The notes below the pieces were generated by a model. It was not told the origin of the DNA. It did not search any database and saw only the letters and a program-made list of their open reading frames with translations. From a virus: 64,000 nucleotides of DNA. How positions within the stretch are numbered: the first letter of the stretch is position 1; each line of letters opens with the position of its first letter. The stretch lies in the IMG/VR virus record IMGVR_UViG_3300045988_117831; one strand, given 5' to 3'. The position numbers and the translations under genes are program-made. Shown here in pieces: positions 1,959 through 58,995 of the stretch.

Positions 1959-2579
1959 ATGAAAGAGCAAGAGCTTGAAATCCCGGAATACTTGAAAGAG
2001 AACGCGCCGGGCGAAATCGACTATTTTGGCGTCATGGATGAAATGGCGGTTGAAGCCACCGACATCGGCCATCGACTGCTGAACCTGGTGGACAAGGCTT
2101 CGCAGCTGGACGTCGAAATCCTCGATCTTCAAAAGGCGCTGGCCGAAAAGGAAGAGGAGCTGAAAACCCTCAAGCGCAACACCATTCCGGAGCTGCTGGA
2201 GGAGCTTGGTCAAAAGACCACTACTCTGGCTGACGGTCGCACGGTCAAAGTCGAGCCGAAGGCCATCATTTCCGTCAAAGAAGAGAACAAATCGAAGTTC
2301 TGGAAGTGGCTGGAAGAAACCGACAACGACGGCATCATCAAGACCAAGGTTCTGGCCGAATTCGGTCGCGGCGAAATGGAAGATGCGAAGAAGGCGGCCG
2401 AGGCTATCATTGAGGCCGGCTATGACGCCACCATCAACCGCGATGTCCACTACCAGACCCTCCAGGCGTTCGGTCGCGAGTATTTGGAGAAGGGCGAAGA
2501 GCTGCCAGATTTCATCGGCGTGCACGAATACAAAGAGGCCAAAATCACGAAACCGAAGGTGAAAAAGAGCAAATCTTAA
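1959..2579 (+). CDS. hypothetical coiled-coil protein with a Lys-rich C-terminus
   Basis: ATG at 1959 preceded by GGAGG. The listed ORF starts earlier, at a TTG. Acidic coiled-coil body and a KPKVKKSKS tail. Confidence 0.55.
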   Translation: MKEQELEIPEYLKENAPGEIDYFGVMDEMAVEATDIGHRLLNLVDKASQLDVEILDLQKALAEKEEELKTLKRNTIPELLEELGQKTTTLADGRTVKVEPKAIISVKEENKSKFWKWLEETDNDGIIKTKVLAEFGRGEMEDAKKAAEAIIEAGYDATINRDVHYQTLQAFGREYLEKGEELPDFIGVHEYKEAKITKPKVKKSKS

Positions 2580-2587
2580 TATGTAAT

Positions 2588-2667
2588 TTGCTTTACTTAG
2601 TTGCAACTTCCGTTATTATAAACCCACAGTTAGCGATAACTGAAATTCGACAAACAAGGAGCCTAAC
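2588..2667 (+). promoter_or_regulatory. sigma70-like promoter plus leader, member H of the repeated promoter family (TTTACT-17-ATTATA)
   Basis: TGCTTTACTTAGTTGCAACTTCCGTTATTATA, then AAGGAG RBS before ATG 2668. Confidence 0.5.
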
Positions 2668-3567
2668 ATGGCTGGTAAGAAAACCGAAACTTCCGAAGCA
2701 ACCGAAGAAACCAAGGCCGTAGCAGTTGCCACCGGTGGCGGCGCCGTCGCAACTACCGAAGTTCCCGACTTCATGGATTTGGGATCGTATGACGGCGCAG
2801 GCTTCGAAGGCGCCGATGCCGAGTCCTATGCCATCCCCTTCATCCAGGTTCTGCAGAAGATGTCTCCCCAGGTCGATGAAGATGACCCGAAGTACATCGA
2901 AGGCGCGAAGGCCGGCATGTTCCTGAACACCGTCACCGGCAAGATTTACGACGGCAAGACCGGCCTGCTGATCATTCCGGCCGCGTACCGCCGCGAGTTC
3001 ATCCGCTGGGCCGGTCGCGAGGCCGAGGGCGGTTTCAAGGGCGCCATCAGCGTCGAAGACTTCAAGGAAATGATGAAAGACCCGACCAAGGTGAAGGAAG
3101 TCGAAGGACGCCTGTACGCGCCGAACGAAGACGGTTCGGTCAGCGACAAGAAGTCTGACTACTTCGCCGACACCCGTGGTCATTACGTCATCGTCATCGA
3201 TCCGGACACCGGCGATTTCGGCCAGGCTCTGATCTCCCTGTCGTCTTCGCAGATCAAGGCCTCGAAGAAGCTCATGACCGCGCTGTCCCAGAAAAAGGTT
3301 CAGACCCCGCAGGGCCTGCGCACCCCGCCGACTTTCGCCAACCTGGTCCGCATGACCACCGTAGGCATGTCGAACGACAAGGGCAGCTGGTCCGGCGTCC
3401 AGTTCGAGCTGGAAGGCCTGGTGAAGAACCCGGATCACTTCAAGGCTGCGGCCGACCTGTACAAGTCGTTCGTCGGCGGCGAGGTGAAGGTGGACTACAG
3501 CAAGCAGGAACAGCCTCGCAGTGACGCCGGTGGCGTCGGCGATGCGACCGAAGCCGAAGAGTTCTAA
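2668..3567 (+). CDS. candidate single-stranded-DNA-binding protein (gp2.5-like): acidic C-terminal tail ending in Phe
   Basis: 299 aa with a strong RBS (AAGGAG). The C-terminus DATEAEEF resembles the acidic, Phe-terminated tails of phage SSBs. It sits in the replication/early block. The functional call is inference only. Confidence 0.4.
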   Translation: MAGKKTETSEATEETKAVAVATGGGAVATTEVPDFMDLGSYDGAGFEGADAESYAIPFIQVLQKMSPQVDEDDPKYIEGAKAGMFLNTVTGKIYDGKTGLLIIPAAYRREFIRWAGREAEGGFKGAISVEDFKEMMKDPTKVKEVEGRLYAPNEDGSVSDKKSDYFADTRGHYVIVIDPDTGDFGQALISLSSSQIKASKKLMTALSQKKVQTPQGLRTPPTFANLVRMTTVGMSNDKGSWSGVQFELEGLVKNPDHFKAAADLYKSFVGGEVKVDYSKQEQPRSDAGGVGDATEAEEF

Positions 3568-32827: not shown

Positions 32828-33007
32828 TGTAGTTCCACGTGGTTGTTGACTGTGTGCGCTTATTATAGGGGAAACATCAAACGTTCAAAAGAGATTCAAA
32901 CATATACATCAGATTAACAGTTGCAACTAATCAGTTATGAGAAAATAATTCTTTACGGGAACTTTTCGGCAGATTAGACTCTAATTATCAACCAATGGAG
33001 ATTAAAC

Positions 33008-33409
33008 ATGAATACTCTTTTGCCAATCGTACATATCGTGTTGAAAGACGGCGAAGTTCTGGGCGTATTCGATTGCGACAAATCGGCAAGATTGTTTCGC
33101 GACATGAAAGGCGGCGTGCTGGATTCCTGGATGGTGGAATCGCAGAACAGCTCGCGTTCACGCCTCGTCACGAAAGAAAGCTATGAAGTCGGTGATCACG
33201 TCATATACCTGGACGAGCACGGAGAAGGACACGGCAAGGTTCTGGCGGTTGAGCCACGAGGCGAGCGTGCTGTCGGCGGACGGGAGCTGTACAACCTATA
33301 TCAAATCAGCAGCGACGATCCGTCCGTGGAGATTTGGATGCTCGACGCAGACATCATCGGCATTTATCCCGACGAAAAGCGCTTTACTCCTGGCGAGCAG
33401 ATGGAATAG
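33008..33409 (+). CDS. hypothetical protein
   Basis: 133 aa. RBS GGAGATTAAAC ahead of the ATG. First gene of the + strand accessory block. Confidence 0.5.
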   Translation: MNTLLPIVHIVLKDGEVLGVFDCDKSARLFRDMKGGVLDSWMVESQNSSRSRLVTKESYEVGDHVIYLDEHGEGHGKVLAVEPRGERAVGGRELYNLYQISSDDPSVEIWMLDADIIGIYPDEKRFTPGEQME

Positions 33410-33440
33410 ACTCTGCTCATCAACTAAAGAGGGTGACGAA

Positions 33441-33764
33441 ATGGCGAGTATCACCGTATGGATTGCTACTGCTTTCCTTTGCACTGGAGACGGCTGCGTC
33501 CAGATGCCGGACCATACTAGCAGACGGTTCGACAGTAAGGCTCAGTGCGAAGACGTCATGCTAAGAGCGATTGATAAGATGTGGGAGCGGCACCAATTGG
33601 TCGTCCAGGCCGTTTGCACGCCTTATTTCCTGAGCAGCACTGAGACTCCCGGATTCTACAGTCCGCCGCCCCAGCCACCGACTGGTCTGAACCGTATGTG
33701 GGACAATTGGATTCGCGGCGGCGGTCTGCCATCCTATGAGCCAGGAAGAGGGTGGAGCGAATGA
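33441..33764 (+). CDS. hypothetical protein with N-terminal hydrophobic segment
   Basis: Start MASITVWIATAFLC after GAGGG. The listed longer ORF's upstream part overlaps the previous gene. Confidence 0.45.
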   Translation: MASITVWIATAFLCTGDGCVQMPDHTSRRFDSKAQCEDVMLRAIDKMWERHQLVVQAVCTPYFLSSTETPGFYSPPPQPPTGLNRMWDNWIRGGGLPSYEPGRGWSE

Positions 33765-33964: not shown

Positions 33965-33969
33965 TGAGT

Positions 33970-34522: not shown

Positions 34523-34523
34523 G

Positions 34524-34820: not shown

Positions 34821-34981
34821 GTACGACTACAACGACGGCGCTGAGCATGGGTTCAAGATCAATAGCGACATTTATTGATTGTCTTCGACCCGACGAACGG
34901 TAGTGAGAAATCTCTACCGTTTTTCCATTTCTGGCGTATAGTCAACTCATCGAAACGAACTTTCCAAACAGGAGAATCGAC

Positions 34982-35914
34982 ATGAACGCAGCAGAGAATC
35001 TGTTCACCGGCTTCGAAGACCTGGGTGATGACTTCGCTACCGTAGAGATCAACAACGAAGCGCCGAAGACCCTGGAAGACGTGTCCATGGGTGCCCGCCC
35101 GAACTCCCGGAAGGAAGTGAAGCTGTATCGCGACAAGTGCACCAAATGCGCAGGCACCGGCCTGTACCGTGGCCCTTCGTCTTATGGTCGCGCCTGCTTT
35201 GCCTGCGGCGGCGTCGGATACAAAGAGTATAAAACCAGCCCGGAGCAGCGCGCCAAGAGCCGTGCTAAGGCGGTAGAAAAGCGCATCGAGAAAATCTGTA
35301 GCGCTGCGCAAGAGCGCGACCTCAAAATTAAGGCCTTCGAAGCCGCGCACCCGGACATCATCGAGTGGTGGACTGGAAATTCCTTCAGCTTCGCTCAGAG
35401 CCTTCAGGAGTCGTTGTATAAATACGGCTCCTTGACAGAAAATCAGATCGCTGCTGCGAAGCGCGCCATCGAAAACCTCGCCAAGTATCGCGAGAAAGTG
35501 GCCGCGCAGGAAGCTGCTGCGCCGACTCTGGACATTTCCGGCATCGAGAAAGCGTTTGAGAAGGCGAAAGAGTCTGGTATCAAGCGCCCGAAAATCCGCC
35601 TAGCTGGCGAAGGCGAGGAGCCGCTCATCGTTGTTGTGAAAGAGGCTAGCGCTCACAGCCGGAACGCCGGTAGCCTGTACGTCCTGGGCGACATCTACCT
35701 CGGCCGGATCACCAATGGCAAATTCATCAAGAGTCGCGACTGCACCGATACTGAGCACGACGACGTTCTGAAGATGTTCGAAAAGCCGATGGAATCGGCA
35801 GTCGCCTACGGTCGGAAGACTGGTCAGTGCTCCTGCTGCGGTCGCGAGTTGACCAACCACGCATCCATCGAAATGGGCATTGGCCCGATCTGTGCCGGAA
35901 AATTCTTCGGATGA
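34982..35914 (+). CDS. zinc-finger protein with two DnaJ-type CxxCxGxG motifs and a C-terminal CxxC...GIGPICAGKF motif
   Basis: 310 aa. CTKCAGTG and CFACGGVG near the N-terminus. CSCCGRE...GIGPICAGKFFG at the C-terminus. Good RBS (GGAGAATCGAC). Confidence 0.55.
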   Translation: MNAAENLFTGFEDLGDDFATVEINNEAPKTLEDVSMGARPNSRKEVKLYRDKCTKCAGTGLYRGPSSYGRACFACGGVGYKEYKTSPEQRAKSRAKAVEKRIEKICSAAQERDLKIKAFEAAHPDIIEWWTGNSFSFAQSLQESLYKYGSLTENQIAAAKRAIENLAKYREKVAAQEAAAPTLDISGIEKAFEKAKESGIKRPKIRLAGEGEEPLIVVVKEASAHSRNAGSLYVLGDIYLGRITNGKFIKSRDCTDTEHDDVLKMFEKPMESAVAYGRKTGQCSCCGRELTNHASIEMGIGPICAGKFFG

Positions 35915-36015
35915 TCTACACGACCATCAAAGCCATGGCCTGGTTCGCCCTTCTATGGGCGACCGGCTTATCAATCGTAACTCTCACAATACATTTCTGC
36001 TACTGAGGATTATCC

Positions 36016-36603
36016 ATGAGCACCGTCCATGACCCGATGAAGGACAAGATCACTCTGCACGGCCTGGGGTTCATTCAGGTCCAACTTCCGGCCGGTCGCC
36101 TCCATGTTTGGCACCCGGAGCTGCCGCGTCGGCTTTGCTTCAATCACTCGGCCATCCACGATCATCGATTCGATTTCGAGTCTCTGGTGCTGGTTGGATC
36201 GATGGAGAACATCAACTATTACGAGGATCGCTCGGCTTGCCTCGGCGAAATGACTCACGAAGGTTATGAGCATTCTTCGGCTCGCCAGGCTTGCGGCGGT
36301 CGCGGCTGGAATCCTGTGGGCTCTGTATGTCTGCGCCAGAGGCAAAGATTTGTTATCGACGCCGGGCAGCAATATTCGATGTCTGCGTACGTTCCGCACA
36401 GGACGAATCCGCTCGGTGACGGCCGCGTGGCGACTCTCATGCGGAAAGGCAGTGTTCATAAATGGCCTGCCACTTCCTATGTGACGCTGGGCGTCGATCC
36501 TGAAACCGACTTCGACCGTTACCAGTGGTCTGTTCCGACGCTCTGGGAAGTCGTCATTGATGTTCTCGGCGGCGCAGAGTTTCAAATCCCCTCCATCCCG
36601 TAA
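36016..36603 (+). CDS. putative cupin-like metalloprotein
   Basis: 195 aa. His clusters HVWHPE and IHDHRFDF suggest a cupin-type metal site. Inference only. Confidence 0.45.
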   Translation: MSTVHDPMKDKITLHGLGFIQVQLPAGRLHVWHPELPRRLCFNHSAIHDHRFDFESLVLVGSMENINYYEDRSACLGEMTHEGYEHSSARQACGGRGWNPVGSVCLRQRQRFVIDAGQQYSMSAYVPHRTNPLGDGRVATLMRKGSVHKWPATSYVTLGVDPETDFDRYQWSVPTLWEVVIDVLGGAEFQIPSIP

Positions 36604-36619
36604 CCGAAGGAATCTGAAA

Positions 36620-37057
36620 ATGAAAAAGTTCTGTGTCGACATCACTAATGGTCTGGCCGGCTTCATCATCTGGGGCGGCGCAATCGTCCTGGCTGCTACC
36701 GTCTTCGTCATCGGCCCGCTGGCCCTCCTGCTGACCGGCGCCTGGGTTGTGTGTACGTCCGTAGTGTTCGCCCTCTGGTTCGCCGTCGCCGGCATCTACG
36801 AAGAGTCGCAAAAGCAGACCGAGTATCTTAAATCCCTGGTGTCGCTCCAGGCGTGTGAACGCGGCATCGGCTACGGCCCAGGAGACGCCGGTTGCAGCGC
36901 TAGCGCTCCGGCCGTTCCCGTAGAGCCCAAGCTCAGCCATCCCAAACTGAAGCCGGGCGCACAGCTCGCGGCCGCTGTCTTGTTCTTTGCCGCCCTCATC
37001 CTCTTGCTGGTAGCAGGTGATTGGATCTGGAATTTCTTCCAGTCGATGCCGAAATAG
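36620..37057 (+). CDS. hypothetical integral membrane protein (about 3 TM helices)
   Basis: Start MKKFCVD after AAGGAATCTGAAA. The upstream part of the listed ORF overlaps the previous gene. Confidence 0.5.
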   Translation: MKKFCVDITNGLAGFIIWGGAIVLAATVFVIGPLALLLTGAWVVCTSVVFALWFAVAGIYEESQKQTEYLKSLVSLQACERGIGYGPGDAGCSASAPAVPVEPKLSHPKLKPGAQLAAAVLFFAALILLLVAGDWIWNFFQSMPK

Positions 37058-37065
37058 TGGAAGAA

Positions 37066-37143
37066 AGTGCTTTACTTCCATTCTGAATGAAGGCAGAATA
37101 GCTCCATTGAAATGCGAAACCCTTCAGACAAAAGGAACCGACC
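37066..37143 (+). promoter_or_regulatory. repeated promoter/leader copy A
   Basis: GTGCTTTACTTCCATTCTGAATGAAGGCAGAAT...CAAAAGGAACCGACCATG. Confidence 0.55.
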
Positions 37144-37923
37144 ATGGCCGACCAGAACGAATTCACCCCTGAAGCCATCGAGAAGGCGAAAGACCGCATC
37201 CGCAAACTGACCGCCATGGCAGCCGACTCTTCCAGTCCGCACGAAGCGGCCATCGCAGCCGAGCGTGTGAAGAAGTTGAAGGACAAATATGACCTTCACG
37301 ACTTCGAAGCTACCGGCGAGATTCGCGAAGAGTTCGATGAGCAAATTGCCACTCGTTACTATTCCGCAATCCCGAACTGGATGAAGTTTTTCTCAGTGGC
37401 CGTGGCGACGTACAATGACTGCATCATGGATTTCGCCGGTGGCATCAACAACCACAGAGCATCGGCTAAGGCATCCAGGAGCGCCCGCGACGGAAGCACT
37501 ACCAAGCGCTGGGGTCATGCCGTACGCTTCAAAGGCTACAAGTCGGACGTTGAGCTGGCGGTGAACATGTTCAACTCCCTGGTCGAGGCCATTGATCGTC
37601 TGTGTCGGGAGTATCAGAAGGCGCAAGGGTACGAACGTTTCAACGTAAAGGTTGCCGCGCAATTCAAACTGGCCGCGACCCAGGAAATCAGCTATCGCCT
37701 TCAGTCCATAACCAGGAAGCGTATGGAGCTGGTATCTTCTGCCGGAACGTCTCTGGTTGTGGTGAAGGAAGCTGCGGTTCACGAACATTTCGGCGATCCT
37801 GGCTACAAGAAGTCCAATGTTACGAAGCTCATGCGTCTGGACGATAGCGACGGTCGGCGCGCCTTCAATGCAGGGGCCAATGCCGGGCGCAATATGGAAA
37901 TCGTTCGGTCGGTGGAGGATTGA
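37144..37923 (+). CDS. DUF2786-like phage protein
   Basis: 259 aa. N-terminal KAKDRIRKLTAMAADSSSPHEAAIAAERVKKL resembles DUF2786. Driven by promoter/leader repeat copy A. Confidence 0.55.
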   Translation: MADQNEFTPEAIEKAKDRIRKLTAMAADSSSPHEAAIAAERVKKLKDKYDLHDFEATGEIREEFDEQIATRYYSAIPNWMKFFSVAVATYNDCIMDFAGGINNHRASAKASRSARDGSTTKRWGHAVRFKGYKSDVELAVNMFNSLVEAIDRLCREYQKAQGYERFNVKVAAQFKLAATQEISYRLQSITRKRMELVSSAGTSLVVVKEAAVHEHFGDPGYKKSNVTKLMRLDDSDGRRAFNAGANAGRNMEIVRSVED

Positions 37924-38324
37924 TTATGAACTTCCCTAGCGACAAAGTGATGCTGCGAATCGTCCAATCCATCCTCGCGATCCTCATCGGGATCGCTTGG
38001 GCCTGCGCCGACTATGGAGTCGTGGCTGCTGAACTTCCTCCATCTCTGCAAGCCCATCCCGCGAGGCCAGGGCACAGCGAAGTCTCTGCCCGCGACCCTA
38101 GGTCGGTCGAGGCCGAAAAAGCGCGGGAAGAGGCCTTAGAATATGTCCTGTCGCTACGCCCGGAAGTTATCGAGGCGAAAGCCCGCTTCGCAGCTGAGGC
38201 GGCGCAGCACGGAATGTCAACCGAGAAATACGCTGAGATGCAGCGCCTGTCAAAGCTGATGTCCGGCATACTTGTGCCGTTTGCGTTCCTTGCGTTCATC
38301 TTCATCATGCTGCTCAGACTGTAA
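37920..38324 (+). CDS. hypothetical membrane protein
   Basis: 134 aa. N- and C-terminal hydrophobic helices. ATGA overlap with the upstream gene. Confidence 0.5.
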   Translation: MIMNFPSDKVMLRIVQSILAILIGIAWACADYGVVAAELPPSLQAHPARPGHSEVSARDPRSVEAEKAREEALEYVLSLRPEVIEAKARFAAEAAQHGMSTEKYAEMQRLSKLMSGILVPFAFLAFIFIMLLRL

Positions 38325-38367
38325 TAGGCCTGAGCAGCGAACAACCGCCAACCAAAAGAGAATCATC

Positions 38368-38751
38368 ATGAAGAAAGAACCGATTCGACTCAGCTCCATG
38401 GCCTCGGCCCGTGCCATCGATGCGGAATTCGCATTCCGGATGGACGAGTTCATGGCGCGCGTCGCTAAAGAGCACGAAGCGCTCGCCGCCCGCGTCGCTA
38501 AAGAGCACGAAGCGCTCGCCGCCCGACTGAATGCCGAGCATCTGGTGCTTTGGGACGAAATCCGCGCTGTCGCCGGCCTGAGCGCCACCGACTTCCCGAA
38601 CATCTCCATGGCGCACGACACTGCCGATGGGAAGCTCTATGTCATGGATGCCGACGAGCTGGAGCGCGTCCGCCAGGCATGTCCCTGCCCGGACTGCGAA
38701 GCCGCACGCGCCGAAAGCATGCCGTCGCAAGCCAGTGGAGGTATTCACTGA
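38368..38751 (+). CDS. hypothetical protein containing a perfect 33-bp in-frame tandem duplication
   Basis: Start MKKEPIRL after AAAGAGAATCATC. RVAKEHEALAA occurs twice consecutively (38458..38523). Confidence 0.5.
   Translation: MKKEPIRLSSMASARAIDAEFAFRMDEFMARVAKEHEALAARVAKEHEALAARLNAEHLVLWDEIRAVAGLSATDFPNISMAHDTADGKLYVMDADELERVRQACPCPDCEAARAESMPSQASGGIH
38458..38523 (+). repeat. perfect 2 x 33-bp tandem duplication inside a CDS
   Basis: CGCGTCGCTAAAGAGCACGAAGCGCTCGCCGCC repeated twice. Confidence 0.85.
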
Positions 38752-38966
38752 TGCCGATCAAGCTATCTTCCGTGCATGTACGGATCGCCGGGCCTGATGG
38801 CAGGGTCTTGGCCGAAGGCCGCGCCGAGTTCTCCGGAACTGCATTCTGGCTGGCCGCGCAACGCGAAATGAAGCTAAAGCACCTCGTCGGAACTTCCTTC
38901 GAAGGCGCCCTGACCTACCTGGCCGACAACGGCTACAACGTTACATTCAGCAAAGGTGAAAAGTAA
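38751..38966 (+). CDS. hypothetical protein
   Basis: 71 aa, MPIKLSSVHV. ATGA overlap with the upstream gene. Confidence 0.45.
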   Translation: MPIKLSSVHVRIAGPDGRVLAEGRAEFSGTAFWLAAQREMKLKHLVGTSFEGALTYLADNGYNVTFSKGEK

Positions 38967-39349: not shown

Positions 39350-39375
39350 GACCCGAAGCCCGGAGCGATCCGGGC
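39346..39375. terminator. bidirectional terminator between the + strand accessory genes and the convergent terminase gene
   Basis: GAAGCCCGGA-GCG-ATCCGGGCTTTTC. Confidence 0.65.
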
Positions 39376-39385
39376 TTTTCTATGT

Positions 39386-40831: not shown

Positions 40832-40865
40832 AACCGTTCGTCGGTGAACATAATTTTATTGTTAA

Positions 40866-40938
40866 TACACTTTACTTCCATTCTGACCAACGGCATAATC
40901 TCTTCATCGAAACGAACAAACACCTGGAGGGTAAGACG
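40866..40938 (+). promoter_or_regulatory. repeated promoter/leader copy B
   Basis: CACTTTACTTCCATTCTGACCAACGGCATAATCTCTTCATCGAAACGAACAAACACCTGGAGG. Confidence 0.6.
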
Positions 40939-41097
40939 ATGAACGCAAACCAGCAAATAGAAGCATTCTTCCTGGCTCGCAAAGCGGAAGGGTGCGGCAA
41001 TAGCAGAGCCTTGGATGCGACCGTCGAGCACTTCGCACAATACAACCCTATGTACGTGCGGACTCACATTCGCCACTGCGCGCTTTGGGATACCTAA
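40939..41097 (+). CDS. small hypothetical protein driven by promoter/leader repeat copy B
   Basis: 52 codons, MNANQQIEAFFLARK... Positioned exactly after the conserved leader and RBS. Confidence 0.35.
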   Translation: MNANQQIEAFFLARKAEGCGNSRALDATVEHFAQYNPMYVRTHIRHCALWDT

Positions 41098-41185
41098 TCA
41101 ACATTCGGATGCGGAAATGCCTTCCATGGGAGGAAATATTCCTGACGGGCATACCGTTCGTCCACTTTGAGAAATATTTCACAAT

Positions 41186-41263
41186 TCTGCTTTACTTCCA
41201 TTCTGAATAGCGTCATAATCTCTTCATCGAACGCGAAACACTCCAAAACAGAGGAACGCAGAA
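41186..41263 (+). promoter_or_regulatory. repeated promoter/leader copy C
   Basis: CTGCTTTACTTCCATTCTGAATAGCGTCATAATCTCTTCATCGAACGCGAAACACTCCAAAACAGAGGAACGCAGAAATG. Confidence 0.6.
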
Positions 41264-41410
41264 ATGACCAAATCCCAGATCAACGATCAAATCCGCTCCG
41301 CCAAGATCGCCATCAGCGAGGCAGAAATGGAAGGCCTGCGCGGCCAGGCTATGATCGCCCTGAAAGCTAAGCTGACCACCCTCAAAGCTCAGTACAAACT
41401 CGCCAAATAA
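41264..41410 (+). CDS. small hypothetical coiled-coil protein driven by promoter/leader repeat copy C
   Basis: 48 codons, MTKSQINDQIRSAKIAISEAEMEGL... Follows the conserved leader. Confidence 0.35.
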   Translation: MTKSQINDQIRSAKIAISEAEMEGLRGQAMIALKAKLTTLKAQYKLAK

Positions 41411-41422
41411 GGGGCCAGAAAA

Positions 41423-42478: not shown

Positions 42479-42655
42479 GCCATGTCCCATATCCCTCGCC
42501 CAGGAACGCTCCAGTTCGAGTTCGAATGTCTCGCTGCGGCCCACTTCGGCATCAATGATGGCGCCTTATCTATGTCGTCCGATGGCGAGCGTTACTGCAA
42601 CGAACACATCGACTGGCTCTGGCGGCAATTCCTGTCTTCAAAAGGTTTCAGATAA
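42479..42655 (+). CDS. small hypothetical protein
   Basis: MSHIPRPGTLQFEF... An alternative GTG start lies at 42467. Confidence 0.3.
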   Translation, partial: AMSHIPRPGTLQFEFECLAAAHFGINDGALSMSSDGERYCNEHIDWLWRQFLSSKGFR

Positions 42656-42663
42656 TCTGAAGA

Positions 42664-42740
42664 AAATGCTTTACTCGATGAGGTGGCTGAGGTATAGTTA
42701 CCTCATCGAACGCGAAACACTCCAAAAAGAGGATTGCGAC
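42664..42740 (+). promoter_or_regulatory. repeated promoter/leader copy D
   Basis: ATGCTTTACTCGATGAGGTGGCTGAGGTATAGTTACCTCATCGAACGCGAAACACTCCAAAAAGAGGATTGCGACATG. Confidence 0.6.
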
Positions 42741-42992
42741 ATGACTAGCTCCAAATGGAACATCGGCAGAAACGACACCATCGCAGTCGAGGCCGTAAAC
42801 AGCCGCGAAGATTTCCGCTGGAACGGCAAGGTTCGCGTCATCCACTACAGCGCCGGTCAAATCGTCAACATCATCGAGTTCTATCACCACGATCTGGACT
42901 GGGCGATCAAGAATTTCGGCATCAAGCTGAAGGCTATCTCCAAAGGCCTGGAAATACTCCACACCTGCTACTTCGGGAAGTATGTCAAGTGA
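42741..42992 (+). CDS. hypothetical protein driven by promoter/leader repeat copy D
   Basis: 83 aa, MTSSKWNIGRN... The listed longer ORF reads through the promoter sequence. Confidence 0.5.
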   Translation: MTSSKWNIGRNDTIAVEAVNSREDFRWNGKVRVIHYSAGQIVNIIEFYHHDLDWAIKNFGIKLKAISKGLEILHTCYFGKYVK

Positions 42993-43607: not shown

Positions 43608-43638
43608 CTTTCAAATCTTCCAAAACCGAGGAACAGTT

Positions 43639-44283
43639 ATGAAACTCTACCATGCAAAAGTCAGCCCTCCATCCTTCTATCGCCACAACCAGACCGACGA
43701 AGAGCGGAAAGCCTTGGAAGCGGAATATGTCAGCAAGCTCCATGTTCTACTGGGGAACCTGGAAGGCGTAACAATCGGGAATCCTGGTGAGCGGAACTGG
43801 GAGCCGTCCACCTGGAGCAACGACGTTCCCGTGGTGTGTAATGAAATCGGCCTGGGTCGTCTGACCGCTTCAGCCTGGGATCTGGACAAGGACTATCCGT
43901 ATACCATCATCAGCCTGGTCCTTCTCTGGGACGACATTGACCCGGAAGCTGCTCTGCGACCCATGCTGGAGCGTCTGGAGCTGGCCGCGAGCCGGTTGGC
44001 CGGTATGTCCGTAAGCTACATCAACCAACCGGAGATGGTGAGTGGAATCGAGGGTTGGAACTCACTCACAGGATCGGCCATACCTGGTCCGAATCTCCAG
44101 AACGTCAACCGTCTGCTGCTCAAGGAAGACTGCTGCACGGACGAACTCCAGTCTGCCCTGGACGCAGGATGGCGCCTTCTCGCCGTGTGTCCTCAGGAAG
44201 CGCGCCGGCCCGACTACATCCTGGGTCGGTTCGATCCCGTCCCGCCGACCGGACCGCGTGGCGCGGCCAGGAGCATCGATTAA
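43639..44283 (+). CDS. hypothetical protein
   Basis: Start MKLYHAKVSPP after GAGGAACAGTT. Confidence 0.5.
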   Translation: MKLYHAKVSPPSFYRHNQTDEERKALEAEYVSKLHVLLGNLEGVTIGNPGERNWEPSTWSNDVPVVCNEIGLGRLTASAWDLDKDYPYTIISLVLLWDDIDPEAALRPMLERLELAASRLAGMSVSYINQPEMVSGIEGWNSLTGSAIPGPNLQNVNRLLLKEDCCTDELQSALDAGWRLLAVCPQEARRPDYILGRFDPVPPTGPRGAARSID

Positions 44284-44610
44284 ATGACCATGGTAGGCCC
44301 GGCTGGCAAGCGCTATTGGCTCCGATATGAAACCAGATACTGGGAGTGTCTTGACGGACAAACCCTGCGGCTGGTCTTCGTCATCAACGGTCGCCGGTAT
44401 GAGGTCAATCGACGAGTGAATGTCGACATCCTGTCCAGTCGGCGCAGGTTCGAATCTTTCGGCCGAGTCCTGGCAAGGATGGAAATCAGCCTGTGGTTCG
44501 CAGTGTGCGAGCAAGAAGGGCCATGGCGCGGTAGCGTAGCCATAAGCGATACCGCACTTTGGTTCCACCTGACGGGAGAATTGGTACACAAATGCTTTAC
44601 TCGGCGGTGA
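44284..44610 (+). CDS. hypothetical protein
   Basis: 108 aa. Start overlaps the upstream stop (TAAATG). Confidence 0.45.
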   Translation: MTMVGPAGKRYWLRYETRYWECLDGQTLRLVFVINGRRYEVNRRVNVDILSSRRRFESFGRVLARMEISLWFAVCEQEGPWRGSVAISDTALWFHLTGELVHKCFTRR

Positions 44611-44676
44611 GAATCAGGGCATAATCTCTTCACCGGCTGAGAAGCCGGACCAGAAGTCCAAAAAGGAATCTCGAAA
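44591..44676 (+). promoter_or_regulatory. repeated promoter/leader copy E
   Basis: ATGCTTTACTCGGCGGTGAGAATCAGGGCATAATCTCTTCACCGG...CCAAAAAGGAATCTCGAAATG. Confidence 0.55.
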
Positions 44677-44811
44677 TGTACAGAACTCCCTCGTCCAAGT
44701 TCACTTTCATCTGCAACGGCCTCGCCCAGAATACTGAAGTGACGGTCCTGCTCCGGACGCAGAAACCGGAAGACGTATGGTGGTGGACGAAGCTCCAGCT
44801 GCGAACCTGAT
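44677..44811 (+). CDS. small hypothetical protein driven by promoter/leader repeat copy E
   Basis: 44 codons, MYRTPSSKFTFICNGLAQNTEV... Confidence 0.3.
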
Positions 44812-46507: not shown

Positions 46508-46599
46508 CATCACCCCAACGCCAACAAACACCGCAGCCTGCTCTGCGGTGTTTTCACATCAGACAACCGTTCGTCGGCTTTGTGATCAATCTGATGAAA

Positions 46600-46696
46600 T
46601 AGATGTAGACACGCAGCATCGACCTAGGCATAATCTCTTTCAACGGGGCGACAAACTGAAGCCCAAACGAAATCTTCCAAAACAGAGGATCGCAAA
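46600..46696 (+). promoter_or_regulatory. repeated promoter/leader copy F (degenerate -35)
   Basis: GGCATAATCTCTTTCAACGGGGCGACAAACTGAAGCCCAAACGAAATCTTCCAAAACAGAGGATCGCAAAATG. Confidence 0.45.
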
Positions 46697-47314
46697 ATGA
46701 CCAACTCCATCAAAACCTTCGGCGACATCCAGAACGCAGAAATGAAAGAACTGGTCGCCTTCTACAACGCTCACAACGCCGATGCGACTGTCAAGCGTTT
46801 CTCTGACCGCAAGACTGCTGAGCGTCGCTGCCTCGCCATCCTGAATGCTCTGCCGGCCGAGGAAGAAGCCTTTCAGGAAGAGGAAGCCCCGGCCAAAGTC
46901 TACAAAACCCGCACTTCCAAGAAGAAGAAGGAAGAAGAGAAGGCCGAGGAAGAGAATCTGAAGCCTGAAGAAGAGATCACCGAAGAGGAAGCGCTGGAAG
47001 AAATCCGGAAGATGCGCGAAGAGGCCAAGAACGCTCCGGAGAAAGCCAAAGAGTCCAAAGACCTGTCGGCAGCCATCGCCAACTCCTGGAAAGACCCGGA
47101 AGTTTCCAAGAAACGCACTCAGCGCCATGGCGTGGCTGTGACTGTCAAAGGCAAGCGCGGCGAGTTCCGGTCCACCAACGCAGCATTCATCGAGTTCGGC
47201 CTGCCTTCTTCGAAACACATCCGCTTCCGCATGCAGCTGAAGGCGGCTGGCAAAATGACTTTCGAGCACGAAGGCGTCAAATACAACTTCGAAATCATCG
47301 AAGCTGGCGAATAA
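46697..47314 (+). CDS. hypothetical protein with Glu/Lys-rich low-complexity centre, driven by promoter/leader repeat copy F
   Basis: 205 aa. Central segment ...KKKKEEEKAEEENLKPEEEITEEEALEEIRKMREEAKNAPEKAKESK... Confidence 0.55.
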   Translation: MTNSIKTFGDIQNAEMKELVAFYNAHNADATVKRFSDRKTAERRCLAILNALPAEEEAFQEEEAPAKVYKTRTSKKKKEEEKAEEENLKPEEEITEEEALEEIRKMREEAKNAPEKAKESKDLSAAIANSWKDPEVSKKRTQRHGVAVTVKGKRGEFRSTNAAFIEFGLPSSKHIRFRMQLKAAGKMTFEHEGVKYNFEIIEAGE

Positions 47315-53950: not shown

Positions 53951-54736
53951 TCAATTACAGATGGCGATGTTGAGAACTTTATCGCGCCCGGCCGCGAACT
54001 TCTCCAGGAAGTCCACCAGGTCATTCAGGATGGTCCCCGCTCGACCTAGCTTGTGGCCGATCAGGAGCTGCGCGACTCGGTGTCCGACGAATTTCCCCGA
54101 AGGAATCTTCGGCCATGTTTCGCCGATGCTTTTGAGTACTGCATCAGTATAGGTTTTGTCCGCGCCGACTTTGTGGTGATCGAGGATCGTGCGATCACGA
54201 ACGTATCGATTGATGATCCGCCGCAGGAACTCGTCTTCAGTCCCGGCCAGGGCGCCGCACTCGCGGAGTTGGCGCAGGAGACGCCACCCCAAGTTCCGCT
54301 CCCACTTTTCGGCGAACTCTTCGGCTTCGGCGAATGACGCTCGCATGATGTGATCGACTGGAATAATGACGGCGCCGCCTTCTTTCGTTCCGGCTTCCAT
54401 GACCGCCCATTCGCCATGCTCGCGATGCTCGATGAAGCCGATCAGCATGCCGATGAAAGCTCCATCTTCCGGAACTCCGGTCACGCGAACGACGGAATGG
54501 CGCGGGAAGGCTTTCGATCCATAAAGGCTGGACTGTGAATTGACCCATCCGGCCTTGGCCAAGTCGGATGCTTCGGCGTGGATCAGCTCGCGACGGATGC
54601 GAACGGCCAGCGCCGGGTCCAGCTCGCGGCTGCGACGCAGGAAACCGGGCTTAAGGTTCGGGTCGCGGGTCTTGTCGACATTGGGATTCGGATTACCGAC
54701 CGGGAGTTGGTCGCGGGAAATCTTGCATTCTTGCAT
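53951..54736 (-). CDS. hypothetical protein, first gene of the minus-strand early/replication operon
   Basis: 261 aa. Preceded on the minus strand by the conserved leader CCAAAACAGAGGATACATTAAATG and two promoter copies. Confidence 0.5.
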   Translation of the reverse strand: MQECKISRDQLPVGNPNPNVDKTRDPNLKPGFLRRSRELDPALAVRIRRELIHAEASDLAKAGWVNSQSSLYGSKAFPRHSVVRVTGVPEDGAFIGMLIGFIEHREHGEWAVMEAGTKEGGAVIIPVDHIMRASFAEAEEFAEKWERNLGWRLLRQLRECGALAGTEDEFLRRIINRYVRDRTILDHHKVGADKTYTDAVLKSIGETWPKIPSGKFVGHRVAQLLIGHKLGRAGTILNDLVDFLEKFAAGRDKVLNIAICN

Positions 54737-54812
54737 TTAATGTATCCTCTGTTTTGGAGGGCAGTACAGGCGGCGGCTCTAGTATCGGCCACTTTCCTGC
54801 CGAAGTAAAGTT
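54737..54812 (-). promoter_or_regulatory. repeated promoter/leader copy, minus orientation (TTTACT-17-GATACT plus conserved leader), driving the 53951..54736 operon
   Basis: Minus strand reads TTTACTTCGGCAGGAAAGTGGCCGATACTAGAGCC...CCAAAACAGAGGATACATTAAATG. Confidence 0.55.
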
Positions 54813-54845
54813 GGATTAAATTCGCTCGCTTTGGCGAGTCAGCTG

Positions 54846-54877
54846 ATAGTATACTCTTCCTGCGCAGAGGTAAAGCA
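54846..54877 (-). promoter_or_regulatory. second minus-oriented promoter of the same class (TGCTTTACC-17-TACTAT)
   Basis: Minus strand reads TGCTTTACCTCTGCGCAGGAAGAGTATACTATC. Confidence 0.45.
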
Positions 54878-54904
54878 TAACTGTACGTTATAAAGGAACA
54901 TTCG

Positions 54905-57675: not shown

Positions 57676-58677
57676 ATGATTCCTGATCAGAAAGTAATCA
57701 TCGTAGGTGCCGGACTCGCCGGACTGATCGCCGCGCATCGCTTTCCTCAAGCCCAAATCATCGACGCGGCGACGCCGGAGAACAAGGAGCGCCACAACGC
57801 ACTTCTGCGATTCCGCTCGCCAGTGATTGGCCAACTCACCGGCATCCCGTTCCGCAAAGTCACTGTACACAAAGCTATCTACATCGACGGCGAGTTCATT
57901 TCCCAGCCGCGCATCGACCACTGCAACATGTACTCCAGGAAAGTAACGGGCGGCCTGTCGGACCGGTCCATCTGGAATCTGGCGACTGAAAAGCGTTGGA
58001 TCGCACCGGCCGACTACTATGAGCAGCTGGTGGCTAAGCTTGCGAATCGTATCACTTGGAGCCGTCCTTTCGACGCCTCTTTCTTCCAGTATCTTCGCCG
58101 GCAAGATGACCACGTGAATATCATCAGCACCGCGCCGTTCCGCGCCAATCTGGCTGCGGCAGGGCTGGACCTGGGAATCGACCCGTCATTCGGTGAAGGA
58201 ACCTCCATCATCGTGAGTCGATACAAGCTCTCCATCCCCTGTGATGTCTTCCAGACCGTGTATTTCCCTGGTCCTAAAGTGGGAACGTTTCGAGCGTCCA
58301 TCACCGGTGATACTCTGATCGTCGAATCCATCACTAAAGGGATAGTGGAGACTTTAGATGGTAAAATCGAAACCATCGAATGGGACAGCGACTGGGATAT
58401 GGATTACGTTTGCGCGGCCTTCGGCATCAGAAGGAAACAGCTCATCGAAGATGGCGAGCCGACCATCCAGACCAAAGGCAAAATCATTCCGCTCGGTCGC
58501 GACGAGCGCGAATCCATGATCTGGAATCTCACCCATGAGGCTGGCATCTTCTCGCTCGGCCGGTTCGCTACCTGGCGCAACGTCCTTCTGGATGATCTGG
58601 TTTCGGACATGGACGTCATCGAGCGCCTGATGACTTCTTCGTCTTATCAGAAGGCCAAGAAAATGTTCGTGAAGTAA
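57676..58677 (+). CDS. FAD/NAD(P)-binding Rossmann-fold oxidoreductase-like protein (UGM / amine-oxidase-like)
   Basis: Start MIPDQK after AAGGGA. VIIVGAGLAGLIAAH dinucleotide-binding motif. C-terminal GRFATWRNVLLDDLVSDMDVIERL resembles the C-terminal FAD-contacting segment of that fold. Confidence 0.5.
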   Translation: MIPDQKVIIVGAGLAGLIAAHRFPQAQIIDAATPENKERHNALLRFRSPVIGQLTGIPFRKVTVHKAIYIDGEFISQPRIDHCNMYSRKVTGGLSDRSIWNLATEKRWIAPADYYEQLVAKLANRITWSRPFDASFFQYLRRQDDHVNIISTAPFRANLAAAGLDLGIDPSFGEGTSIIVSRYKLSIPCDVFQTVYFPGPKVGTFRASITGDTLIVESITKGIVETLDGKIETIEWDSDWDMDYVCAAFGIRRKQLIEDGEPTIQTKGKIIPLGRDERESMIWNLTHEAGIFSLGRFATWRNVLLDDLVSDMDVIERLMTSSSYQKAKKMFVK

Positions 58678-58685
58678 TTTACAAA

Positions 58686-58764
58686 AGTGCTTTACTTCTG
58701 GATCAGGTGGGCGTAATATTCCCTCATCGAAACGCGAACCCCTTCAACCAAAAGGAATCGACAA
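58686..58764 (+). promoter_or_regulatory. repeated promoter/leader copy G
   Basis: AGTGCTTTACTTCTGGATCAGGTGGGCGTAATATTCCCTCATCGAAACGCGAACCCCTTCAACCAAAAGGAATCGACAAATG. Confidence 0.6.
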
Positions 58765-58995
58765 ATGGCCCGCGAAGTAACCTTCTCCACCGACAAGAAC
58801 CACACCAAAACCTACGCCACCAAGGCCAATCTCGAACGCGCTATCGCCAAGGCCGAGTGGCTCGGTGAAGGCGCCCGCTACTTCATCCATATGACCGAGG
58901 ACGGCCGCCTGACTCCTGTGTTCCTTCTGAATAGCCTTCCTGCAGGGGCTGGTGCCGTGTGGTGCGCTCAGCACGGCTGGAACGTGGTAGGTTAA
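58765..58995 (+). CDS. hypothetical small protein driven by promoter/leader repeat copy G
   Basis: 76 aa, MAREVTFSTDKNHTKTYATKANLERAIAKAEW... Confidence 0.45.
   Translation: MAREVTFSTDKNHTKTYATKANLERAIAKAEWLGEGARYFIHMTEDGRLTPVFLLNSLPAGAGAVWCAQHGWNVVG

What the first reader, a model, noticed from the sequence alone, without database searches (positions are those of the whole stretch)
37066..37143. A sigma70-like promoter plus conserved 5' leader present in at least 10 copies
The consensus is (G)TGCTTTACT-N17-CATAAT/TATAGT/TAATAT, followed by CTCTTCATCGAA(A)CGCGAAACACTCCAAAACAGAGGAnnGCAnAAATG.

Copies occur at:
- 37066 (DUF2786 gene), 40866, 41186, 42664, 44591, 46600 (degenerate -35), 58686, and 2588 (variant), all on the + strand;
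- 54737-54812 and 54846-54877 on the minus strand, driving the 53951-54736 replication/early operon.

The -35/-10 spacing and sequence fit host sigma70, which implies an early/middle regulon.

Conservation continues about 40 nt past the -10 into the leader, up to the RBS. That is more than a promoter needs. It suggests a shared post-transcriptional element, such as a translational operator, an RNase or sRNA site, or a binding site for a phage or host regulator.

Two copies drive only tiny ORFs of 48 and 52 codons.
Basis: seen in the sequence. Interest (0 to 1): 0.6.

Follow-up and report, generated by a model that had tools for sequence, protein, structure and literature searches.

The report
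Known phage early promoters, shared start sequence
This is one copy of the already mapped family of host-RNA-polymerase early promoters of PB1-like Pseudomonas phages. The extra conservation after the promoter is mainly a fixed transcript start sequence plus a ribosome-binding module, not a folded RNA switch, although that start sequence also occurs in unrelated phages.

Summary
The window is a Pbunavirus (PB1-like Pseudomonas aeruginosa phage). All ten listed copies are real, and three more were missed (32951, 33382, 34949). A CTTTAC-N16-18-(-10) scan gives 13 sites, 11 of them credible promoters, against 0.38 expected.

The copies are orthologues of promoters whose start sites were mapped in phage 14-1. 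Two of those were shown to be active with host RNA polymerase alone, from constructs that lacked the leader. The promoter part is therefore already known.

The stated 40-nt leader consensus is essentially one copy and has no match within 3 mismatches. The real conservation falls into two modules:
- An initial transcribed sequence, A(+1)TCGAAAC(G)CGAAAC, locked to the start site. It occurs in about 6 copies.
- A ribosome-binding block, TCCAAAACAGAGGA or CCTTCAnnCAAAAGGAA. It is also used by an internal gene that has no promoter.

I found no conserved RNA structure and no Rfam family. At two loci, whole cassettes sit at the junctions where small ORFs are gained, lost or replaced. This resembles the PeSL cassettes of T4-like phages.

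One result was unexpected. The -10/discriminator/ATCGAAAC module also sits exactly at +1 in Kylevirus, Wifcevirus and T1-like phages. The one T1-like genome I tested shares no detectable protein with this phage. The module also resembles the T7 A1 and A3 start sequences. This points to a function in transcription initiation, not a phage-specific RNA operator.

The parts
37066..37146 (+). The flagged copy, orthologue of 14-1 P006. It has -35 TTTACT at 37071-37076, -10 CAGAAT at 37094-37099, discriminator AGCTCC, +1 = A37106, ITS ATTGAAATGCGAAAC, RBS block CCTTCAGACAAAAGGAA at 37121-37137 and ATG at 37144 (DUF2786/DUF7168 gene).
40850..40941 (+). Promoter cassette with +1 at 40906, ITS ATCGAAACGAACAAAC and ATG at 40939 (52-codon ORF). 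The cassette plus its ORF (40915-41189) is absent from 14-1.
41170..41266 (+). Promoter cassette, orthologue of 14-1 P001, which was validated in vivo. It has +1 at 41226, ITS ATCGAACGCGAAAC, RBS block TCCAAAACAGAGGA at 41242-41255 and ATG at 41264 (48-codon gp02 homologue, followed by the gp01 homologue).
42649..42743 (+). Promoter cassette, orthologue of 14-1 P049, with +1 at 42705 and ATG at 42741. A 10-bp perfect inverted repeat (42675-42684 / 42700-42709) flanks the -10.
44575..44678 (+). Promoter with an 18-nt spacer, orthologue of 14-1 P048. Predicted +1 is 44632; the mapped start in 14-1 lies 9 nt further downstream. A 5' hairpin CCGGCTGAGAAGCCGG stands in place of the ITS block. RBS block is GTCCAAAAAGGAA and ATG is at 44676.
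46586..46699 (+). Promoter with a degenerate -35 (TAGACA), orthologue of 14-1 P043. It has -10 CATAAT at 46629-46634, a longer leader with a 5' hairpin, RBS block TCCAAAACAGAGGA at 46676-46689 and ATG at 46697.
58670..58767 (+). Promoter cassette, orthologue of 14-1 P028, which drives gp65..gp59 in 14-1. It has +1 at 58726, ITS ATCGAAACGCGAACC, RBS block CCTTCAACCAAAAGGAA at 58741-58757 and ATG at 58765.
2571..2670 (+). Variant copy with a 16-nt spacer, orthologue of 14-1 P024, with +1 at 2626. It shares only the -35 and -10, and has its own leader with a 5' hairpin. ATG is at 2668 (Pam3_Gp34-like protein).
54734..54830 (-). Promoter, orthologue of 14-1 P038, which was validated in vivo. It has +1 at about 54774, lacks the ITS block, carries RBS block TCCAAAACAGAGGA at 54745-54758 and has ATG at 54736.
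54839..54895 (-). Upstream tandem promoter, orthologue of 14-1 P037, with +1 at about 54839. It overlaps a divergent plus-strand promoter (orthologue of P036, +1 at about 54863).
34899..34984 (+). A terminator hairpin with a T-run (34899-34924) occupies the -35 position. It also has -10 TATAGT, +1 at 34949, ITS ATCGAAACGAAC and ATG at 34982.
33362..33443 (+). It has CGCTTTACT, an 18-nt spacer, -10 TAGACT, +1 at 33419, short leader ATCAACTAAAGAGGG and ATG at 33441.
32931..33010 (+). It has TTCTTTACG, -10 TAGACT, +1 at 32987, short leader ATCAACCAATGGAG and ATG at 33008.
43619..43641 (+). RBS block TCCAAAACCGAGGA in front of an internal gene (gp84 homologue) that has no promoter of its own. This shows that the RBS block is not tied to the promoter.

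Best explanation
The element at 37066-37143 is one member of the early-promoter family of PB1-like phages (Pbunavirus), which is read by host sigma70 RNA polymerase. It includes the short 5' untranslated region of the gene it drives. In order, each cassette contains:
- an A/T-rich stretch;
- the non-canonical -35 element (G)TGCTTTACT;
- a 17-nt spacer;
- a -10 hexamer;
- a pyrimidine-rich discriminator;
- the start site, an A lying 7 nt after the -10;
- a purine-rich initial transcribed sequence, ATCGAAAC(G)CGAAAC;
- an A-rich, U-poor stretch with no stable predicted structure;
- a Shine-Dalgarno sequence and the ATG.

**Shown**
- The copies exist and are far more numerous than chance would give.
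- Their start sites match those mapped in phage 14-1.
- Two orthologues work with host polymerase alone.

**Inferred**
- The conservation beyond the -10 has three causes.
  1. The first 8-15 transcribed bases belong to the working promoter, where they set start-site choice and aid promoter escape. That is why they keep a fixed distance from the -10 and not from the ATG.
  2. The distal block is a strong ribosome-binding module that the phage reuses elsewhere.
  3. Whole cassettes are copied or exchanged by recombination when small early genes are gained, lost or replaced.
- The leader is not a folded RNA switch.
For: **Identity of the phage and its promoters**
- The window is 99.2% identical to Pseudomonas phage vB_PaeM_1648, and 303 phage records, nearly all Pbunavirus, match.
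- The scan gives 13 sites against 0.38 expected.
- The 14-1 start-site table lists the orthologous promoters. My +1 predictions match it to the base for seven promoters and within 1 nt for an eighth.
- P001 and P038 are active in E. coli and P. aeruginosa. The P001 construct was -50..+1 only.
- The same motif is annotated as a promoter in phiKT28.

**The ITS is tied to the start site**
- The ITS 8-mer sits exactly at the predicted +1 five times in the window, three times in Kyle and twice in WFC. About 0.005 is expected in each.
- In Rogue1, promoters were located through an independent upstream motif. There, 5 of 11 ATCGAAAC occurrences sit at +1, against 0.012 expected.
- Non-family sigma70 promoters of the same phage lack the ITS.
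- Rogue1 shares no detectable protein with the window.
- The T7 A1 start sequence is ATCGAGAGGGAC and the T7 A3 region reads ATGAAACGACAG.
- Published work shows that the ITS can change promoter output more than 10-fold, that purine content correlates with productive yield, and that GA/GG near +6 favours escape.

**No RNA structure**.

**The RBS block is independent of the promoter**.

**Recombination at cassettes**
- 14-1 lacks window 40915-41189, and the flanking homology blocks overlap within the 45-bp promoter repeat.
- SPM-1 carries a different ORF after window position 40916.
- PaW12, SPM-1 and Epa15 carry an extra ORF between two cassette copies that both align to 42646-42726.
- In PAC8 and SPM-1 a different gene follows window position 42745.
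Against: - No experiment on this phage itself was available. Start sites and activity are taken from a relative that is about 93% identical.
- The role of the ITS in escape or start-site choice is inferred from its position, from its resemblance to T7 A1/A3 and from general literature. It was not measured.
- Precise 13-20 nt identity across unrelated phages is more than a loose preference for purine-rich sequence would predict. A specific binding partner therefore remains possible.
- A hand-drawn 4-bp helix pairing a CUYC element with the Shine-Dalgarno sequence is kept in 85.9% of cells, against 79% in shuffles, with changes on both sides at 3 pairs. This is compatible with weak translational tuning.
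- Cassettes are not significantly enriched among indel junctions overall. Only 3-4 of 25 junctions lie in cassettes, against 1.3 expected, P about 0.04-0.14.
- Serratia phage MyoSmar, a syntenic relative, lacks the ITS.
Confidence: 0.6

Rival explanations
1. RNA-level operator. The shared leader would be bound by a translational repressor, an RNase or a small RNA. Early mRNAs would then be controlled together after transcription, as T4 RegA does for early T4 messages.
For: - Sequence similarity runs up to the Shine-Dalgarno sequence in about 5 copies.
- The exact 14-mer TCCAAAACAGAGGA precedes four different genes.
- A weak helix between an anti-SD-like element and the SD shows changes on both sides. 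Its dG is -1 to -4.3 kcal/mol.
Against: - There is no consensus structure, no excess folding energy and no Rfam hit.
- The best-conserved block is anchored to +1, and its distance to the ATG varies from 29 to 42 nt.
- The RBS block differs between orthologous leaders of the same gene and is specific to each lineage in Kyle and MyoSmar.
- The +1 block occurs in T1-like phages. The one genome tested, Rogue1, shares no detectable protein with this phage, so a phage-encoded binder is unlikely.
- The helix was drawn from the same sequences and rests mainly on two clades.
Confidence: 0.15
2. Pure hitch-hiking. The leader similarity would be only a by-product of recent duplication and gene conversion of promoter cassettes, with no function beyond the -10.
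For: - Tandem cassette copies flank inserted ORFs.
- Copies 37070, 40870 and 41190 also share the spacer segment TTCCATTCTGA, which has no known function.
- In PaW12, the leaders of gp02 and gp08 share the same variant base (GCAAAAC). This suggests concerted evolution.
Against: - Conserved blocks alternate with variable ones. The spacer scores 0.59 and the leader 0.70.
- The same +1 block is kept in Kylevirus and Wifcevirus (49.5% and about 45% G+C, against about 56% here) and in T1-like phages.
- The block is placed exactly at +1 far more often than chance allows.
Confidence: 0.1
3. DNA-level operator. The sequence around +1 (CCTCATCGAAAC) would be a half-site for a repressor or another DNA-binding factor that shuts early promoters off. 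Where it pairs with an inverted copy in the spacer, it would act as a stem-loop attenuator for read-through transcripts.
For: - A 10-bp perfect inverted repeat flanks the -10 at 42669 (P<0.001).
- An 11-bp perfect inverted repeat, GTTTCGATGAG / CTCATCGAAAC, flanks the -10 of a WFC promoter.
- The arms change together in Epa15 (CGATGAGATG / CATCTCATCG).
- PeSL cassettes of T4-like phages carry stem-loops that overlap the -10.
Against: - The inverted repeat is significant in only one of 11 window copies and marginal in two.
- The distance between the arms differs (15 against 10 nt).
- The repeat is disrupted in 14-1, where read-through across this promoter is seen.
- No candidate binding protein was identified.
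Confidence: 0.1

Closest known systems
Sigma70-like promoters of Pseudomonas phage 14-1 mapped by ONT-cappable-seq (Putzeys et al. 2024, PMC10914365; Table S3 in bioRxiv 10.1101/2023.10.13.562163)
   Same: These are the orthologous sequences: P001, P006, P009, P010, P012, P024, P028, P037, P038, P043, P048 and P049. Their start sites fall at the same positions. P001 and P038 were validated in vivo with host polymerase alone.
   Different: - The window is another Pbunavirus isolate, and it has one extra cassette (40870) that 14-1 lacks.
- The paper analysed -50..+1 only. It does not mention the shared transcribed sequence or RBS block.
PeSL (promoter-early stem-loop) mobile regulatory cassettes of T4-like phages (Arbiol et al. 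2010, PMC2839356; Comeau et al. 2014, PMC4122927)
   Same: - Both are repeated cassettes made of an A/T-rich stretch, an early sigma70-type promoter, a Shine-Dalgarno sequence and an ATG.
- In T4/PST the promoter form is TTTACW-N17-TAYWAT.
- Both lie upstream of small ORFs of unknown function in variable regions.
- Both coincide with insertion, deletion and replacement junctions between close relatives.
   Different: - Most copies here have no stem-loop. Only the 42669 and 34949 copies do.
- Enrichment at junctions is not statistically secure.
- Minicircles were not examined.
- The phage lineage is different.
Bacteriophage T7 early promoters A1 and A3
   Same: - Both are strong phage promoters read by host polymerase.
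- Both transcripts start with A in a C-A-T context and continue with a purine-rich sequence. A1 reads ATCGAGAGGGAC and A3 reads ATGAAACGACAG, against ATCGAAACGCGAAAC here.
   Different: - T7 uses a canonical TTGAC -35 element.
- The similarity is limited to about 5-10 nt.
- The A3 start position is taken from my own knowledge, not from a tool result.
Morons (transcriptionally autonomous accessory genes in phage genomes)
   Same: Small accessory ORFs, each with its own promoter, are inserted between conserved genes. Examples are 40915-41189 and the extra ORF at the gp88 locus in relatives.
   Different: Classical morons sit in prophages, carry their own terminator and often differ in base composition. 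Here the promoter is a copy of the phage's own early promoter, and the phage is virulent.

Membership tests
Bacterial sigma70-dependent promoter | -35-like and -10-like hexamers separated by 16-18 bp | tested here: met
   TTTACT-N17-CAGAAT/CATAAT/TATAGT is present. The scan finds 13 sites against 0.38 expected.
Bacterial sigma70-dependent promoter | Transcription starts 6-8 nt downstream of the -10 | tested here: met
   The predicted +1 (the 7th nt after the -10) matches the mapped start sites of the 14-1 orthologues. This rests on a relative and was not measured in this phage.
Bacterial sigma70-dependent promoter | Activity with host RNA polymerase and no phage factor | not testable with these tools
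   The literature shows it for the orthologues P001 and P038 in E. coli and P. aeruginosa. It has not been shown for the 37070 copy (P006).
PeSL mobile regulatory cassette | Strong early sigma70-type promoter with an A/T-rich upstream region, ending in an SD and ATG | tested here: met
   The upstream 24 nt are 69% A+T, against 44% for the genome. The cassette anatomy is shown.
PeSL mobile regulatory cassette | Stem-loop (terminator or attenuator) within or next to the promoter | tested here: not met
   - Only the 42669 copy (10-bp inverted repeat) and the 34949 copy qualify.
- The 34949 hairpin with its T-run corresponds to 14-1 T004, which lies 24 nt upstream of the P009 start.
- The other copies have no such repeat.
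PeSL mobile regulatory cassette | Located in variable regions upstream of small ORFs, with indel or replacement junctions inside the cassettes | tested here: inconclusive
   Junctions are clear at two loci. Overall, only 3-4 of 25 junctions fall in cassettes, P about 0.04-0.14.
Curated cis-regulatory RNA (Rfam leader, riboswitch or thermometer) | Match to a covariance model, or a conserved secondary structure | tested here: not met
   There are no Rfam matches at gathering score. RNAalifold finds no pairs. Folding z-scores run from -2.0 to +0.7.
CsrA/RsmA binding site | GGA presented in the loop of a short hairpin, usually in two or more copies | tested here: not met
   The only GGA is the Shine-Dalgarno sequence itself. 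In the best local fold it lies in the 3' arm of a weak helix, not in a loop.
RegA-type translational operator | A phage-encoded repressor binding a shared sequence at the RBS or AUG of many early mRNAs | not testable with these tools
   A shared RBS block exists, but no repressor is known or identifiable. The block differs between orthologous leaders.

The most novel reading that the evidence does not exclude
The 20-25 bp around the start site, TAtAgT-N3-YTC-A(+1)TCGAAACG(A/C)GAAAC, may be a discrete 'start module'. It is kept in unrelated virulent phages of gamma-proteobacteria: Pbunavirus, Kylevirus, Wifcevirus, T1-like Drexlerviridae and a Vibrio siphovirus. In those phages it is combined with quite different upstream promoter halves. 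It is rare in E. coli genomes, where only 31 of 5426 have even a partial match. Under this reading it is retained because a conserved host component recognises it specifically. That component could be RNA polymerase during initial transcription, or a factor acting on the 5' end of the transcript. This would make it a promoter-proximal element class that has not been described, not merely a purine-rich start.
Probability: 0.25. Interest if true: 0.65.

Novelty: new member of a known kind. Interest (0 to 1): 0.35.

Why it matters
- **For annotation.** These sites can be marked as experimentally supported early promoters, with start sites given to the base. Three further copies can be added.
- **For phage biology.** Small early genes of PB1-like therapeutic phages are gained and lost together with a ready-made expression cassette of promoter, start sequence and RBS. 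This mirrors what was described for T4-like phages.
- **For transcription research and engineering.** The same start sequence recurs in phages that share no detectable protein. This suggests a portable, host-polymerase-optimised start module that could be tested directly, and it separates that idea from the RNA-operator idea.

Tried and rejected
- **Known RNA family or conserved fold.** Rfam gave nothing. Single-sequence folding is no better than shuffles. RNAalifold found no pairs.
- **Inverted repeat around the -10 as a family-wide feature.** It is significant in one copy only.
- **Cassettes as the main indel hotspots.** The enrichment is not secure.
- **Loose pattern scan of viral contigs** (CTTTACT-N28-31-ATCGAAAC). 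Most hits were chance, and only a few led anywhere.
- **ITS conserved in all PB1-related genera.** Serratia phage MyoSmar lacks it.
- **ITS as a host core-promoter feature.** Only 31 of 5426 E. coli genomes have a partial match, at varying positions.
- **A phage protein shared with T1-like phages as candidate binder.** No window ORF hits Rogue1 at E<=1e-4.
- **Hfq/Crc A-rich (ARN, AAnAAnAA) and RsmA motifs.** I inspected these by eye and found at most 2-4 ARN triplets and no consistent match. This was a judgement, not a formal test.
- **Literature.** I found nothing on the temporal class of these genes or on the motif itself.
- **T4 MotA box.** TGCTTTA resembles it, but here it lies 19 nt from the -10, not about 12 nt. 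I rejected it on spacing, from my own knowledge of T4 middle promoters.

Full report
**What the window is.** The stretch 36000-44000 is 99.2% identical to Pseudomonas phage vB_PaeM_1648. It matches 303 phage records, almost all of them Pbunavirus (PB1-like myoviruses of P. aeruginosa). G+C is about 55%.

**Checking the observation.**
- The sequence at 37066-37143 reads as the finding says, and all listed copies exist.
- A scan for CTTTAC, a 16-18 nt spacer and a -10-like hexamer gives 13 sites in the window. Simulated sequence gives a mean of 0.38 and a maximum of 3. Two of the 13 (43184-, 29915-) look like chance hits inside genes.
- The scan adds 32951 and 33382. A further copy with a disrupted -35 lies upstream of the gp12-like gene, with its start at 34949.
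- The written leader consensus, however, has no match within three mismatches. It is in effect the 41190 copy.

**What is already known.**
- Putzeys et al. mapped 50 transcription start sites in the Pbunavirus 14-1 by ONT-cappable-seq and classed 26 as sigma70-like.
- Their Table S3 lists the 50 bp upstream of each start. The window copies are orthologues as follows:

| Window copy | 14-1 promoter |
|---|---|
| 37070 | P006 |
| 41190 | P001 |
| 42669 | P049 |
| 44595 | P048 |
| 46600 | P043 |
| 58690 | P028 |
| 2591 | P024 |
| 54875 | P037 |
| 54810 | P038 |
| 33382 | P010 |
| 32951 | P012 |
| 34949 | P009 |

- I took +1 as the seventh base after the -10 and applied this to the 14-1 DNA. The result reproduces the published coordinates 707, 4479, 8684, 9116, 39481, 49234 and 65240 exactly, and 53163 within one base.
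- P001 and P038 drove a reporter in E. coli and P. aeruginosa. P001 was among the strongest, from a fragment ending at +1 and fused to a standard RBS.
- The same motif is annotated as a MEME-derived putative promoter in phiKT28.
- The promoter half of the finding is therefore established, and its start site is the A in ...TC-A-TCGAA. It follows that CTCTTC is the discriminator, not leader RNA.
- In 14-1 these promoters drive gp02-gp01, gp08, gp12, gp16-gp13, gp65-gp59, gp88-gp84 and others. They do not drive only tiny ORFs.

**Anatomy of the conserved part after the -10.** An alignment of 12 window copies and of all distinct leaders from eight relatives shows two separable modules.
- *Start-site module.* The first module is A(+1)TCGAAAC(G)CGAAAC, two heptads of NCGAAAC.
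  - It keeps a fixed distance from the -10, while its distance to the ATG varies from 29 to 42 nt.
  - It is present at 37106, 40906, 41226, 42705, 58726 and 34949.
  - A shorter form, ATCAAC, is present at 33419 and 32987.
  - It is absent from the other sigma70 promoters of the phage.
- *Ribosome-binding module.* The second module is an A-rich ribosome-binding block.
  - TCCAAAACAGAGGA occurs as an exact 14-mer at 41242, 46676 and 54745(-).
  - It occurs with one change at 43619, in front of an internal gene without a promoter.
  - CCTTCAnnCAAAAGGAA occurs at 37121 and 58741.
- Orthologous leaders of the same gene can carry either version of the RBS block.
- For the five fullest copies, the leader is 70% identical on average, against 55% for shuffles. 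That is more than the spacer (59%) and about the same as the -10 (68%).

**Is it an RNA element?**
- Leaders plus 30 nt of coding sequence fold no better than dinucleotide shuffles (z from -2.0 to +0.7). They are 32-48% A and 5-19% U.
- Rfam gives nothing at gathering score.
- RNAalifold on 20 distinct leaders predicts no pair.
- I drew one helix by hand, in which a CUYC element pairs with the Shine-Dalgarno sequence.
  - It is formed in 85.9% of cells, against 79% in shuffles and 20-65% when slid, with double changes at three pairs.
  - It is worth only -1 to -4.3 kcal/mol.
  - It was derived from these same sequences and rests mostly on two clades.
  - I treat it as possible fine-tuning of translation, not as a switch.

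**Duplication and exchange.**
- Phage 14-1 lacks window 40915-41189, which holds the 52-codon ORF and the DNA up to the second promoter. The two flanking homology blocks overlap within the 45-bp promoter repeat. This is the signature of recombination between direct repeats.
- SPM-1 is 99% identical to the window up to 40916 (+11 of the transcript) and then carries a different ORF.
- At the next locus, the window's single cassette (42646-42726) aligns to two cassettes in PaW12 that bracket an extra 186-nt ORF. In PAC8 and SPM-1, homology stops at 42745, just past the ATG, and another gene follows.
- This matches the behaviour of PeSL cassettes in T4-like phages. Those cassettes consist of an A/T-rich region, an early promoter (TTTACW-N17-TAYWAT in T4/PST), a stem-loop, an SD and an ATG.
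- The match is incomplete.
  - Only two window copies have a stem-loop. One is the 10-bp inverted repeat around the -10 at 42669. The other is the terminator hairpin at 34899-34924, which corresponds to 14-1 T004 ending 24 nt before the P009 start.
  - Across 31000-49500, only 3-4 of 25 indel junctions fall in cassettes (P about 0.04-0.14).

**The unexpected part.** By BLAST, the whole cassette is confined to Pbunavirus (299 records, 970 places). The -10/discriminator/start block is not confined in this way.
- *Pantoea phage Kyle* (Kylevirus) is syntenic with PB1 and has 49.5% G+C. It has promoters of the form aaaGTGCTTTACT-N17-TATAAT-gtaYtt-ATCGAAACGAAA. One of them has a TTGACG -35 and still carries ATCGAAAC.
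- *E. coli phage WFC* (Wifcevirus, about 45% G+C) has TATATT-TACCTC-ATCGAAACGAAGTCCAAAAAAGGA and CATAAT-TACTTC-ATCGAAACGAAACAGAGGAAC. Three further WFC promoters start ATCGAGAGGGG or ATCGAGACGGG.
- *T1-like siphoviruses* appeared when I searched a 52-nt core query against all phages. It hit intergenic DNA of about 150 Escherichia, 24 Shigella, 11 Klebsiella and 7 Vibrio phage records.
- *Rogue1* (a T1-like phage) has 13 promoters marked by an unrelated upstream palindrome, ATAGCAC-N3-TTGCTAA.
  - Five of them carry ATCGAAAC at the predicted +1, against 0.012 expected, and eight start with ATC.
  - No window ORF has a detectable homologue in Rogue1.
- *Placement at +1.* The 8-mer sits exactly at the predicted +1 five, three and two times in the window, Kyle and WFC. 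About 0.005 is expected in each.
- *Absences.* Serratia phage MyoSmar lacks the block. Only 31 of 5426 E. coli genomes have even a partial match.
- *T7 comparison.* The T7 A1 transcript starts ATCGAGAGGGAC, and the A3 region reads ATGAAACGACAG.
- *Published ITS effects.* Initial transcribed sequences can change promoter output more than 10-fold. Purine content correlates with productive yield. GA/GG near +6 favours escape, and TG hinders it.

**Interpretation.**
- The start-site block is best read as part of the promoter's working unit for host polymerase. It would act in start selection and in leaving the promoter. It is reused by many phages, through descent, transfer or convergence.
- That explains why it is locked to +1, why it is independent of the upstream promoter half and of the downstream gene, and why phages without shared proteins have it.
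- The distal block is a reused strong RBS in an unstructured, A-rich context.
- Copying of whole cassettes accounts for the near-identity of some pairs.
- What is not explained is the precision of the shared 13-20 nt, which goes beyond a loose compositional preference. A specific host partner therefore remains possible.

**Verdict.**
- The promoters are known.
- The conserved leader is real but overstated, and it is not a folded RNA element.
- The cassette behaviour is a new instance of a known kind.
- The distribution of the start module across unrelated phage families is the only part that deserves follow-up.

Noticed in passing
window 42675-42684 and 42700-42709: A perfect 10-bp inverted repeat (TCGATGAGGT / ACCTCATCGA) brackets the -10 of the 42669 promoter (P<0.001 against shuffled spacers). 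In relatives the arms change together (Epa15: CGATGAGATG / CATCTCATCG) or become G-T pairs. The repeat is broken in 14-1. E. coli phage WFC has an 11-bp version, GTTTCGATGAG / CTCATCGAAAC.
   Followed up: partly
window 34899-34924: A terminator-like hairpin (GGTAGTGAG-AAA-TCTCTACC followed by GTTTTT) sits where the -35 of the gp12 promoter should be. In 14-1 the mapped 3' end T004 (6661) lies 24 nt upstream of the P009 start (6637). The stem differs from the 14-1 stem by paired changes.
   Followed up: partly
window 40915-41189: A promoter plus a 52-codon ORF is present here and absent from 14-1. SPM-1/DRL-P1 and PaW12/PAC8/Epa15 carry different small ORFs at the same place, next to the terminase gene.
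   Followed up: yes
window 54839-54877, both strands: Two promoters point in opposite directions and overlap (orthologues of 14-1 P036 and P037). Their start sites lie about 24 bp apart.
   Followed up: no
window 44676-44810: The gp82 homologue stops after 44 codons. Its translation diverges from 14-1 gp82 (74 aa) after residue 35. This looks like a frameshift or a sequencing error.
   Followed up: partly
L140+L139 (Enterobacteria phage Rogue1, whole genome): Thirteen promoters share the palindrome-containing motif aAATAGCAC-N3-TTG(C/T)TAAA about 22 nt upstream of the -10. That is too far for a sigma70 -35 element, which suggests an activator site. In one copy, and in phage ESCO41, a terminator hairpin (AAGCCCTTCGGGGCTTTT) lies between this motif and the -10.
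   Followed up: partly
L132 2381-2900 and L133 33070-33600 (E. coli phage WFC terminal repeats): Three CTTTACT-type promoters start with ATCGAGAGGGG, ATCGAGACGGG or ATCGGGACGGG. The first matches the first ten transcribed bases of T7 A1.
   Followed up: no
Kyle (L130/L131) and MyoSmar (L134/L135): Each phage has its own repeated ribosome-binding block: AACGAGGAYTTAAARATG in Kyle and TTAAGAGGATTTnAAAATG in MyoSmar. Reuse of one RBS block seems general in this group of phages.
   Followed up: no
window 37076-37086, 40876-40886, 41196-41206: Three promoters share the spacer segment TTCCATTCTGA directly after the -35. The 34949 copy carries a near-match with one extra T (TTCCATTTCTG), and its 14-1 orthologue P009 has TTCCATTCTG. 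The rest of each spacer differs. The function of this segment, if any, is unknown.
   Followed up: no
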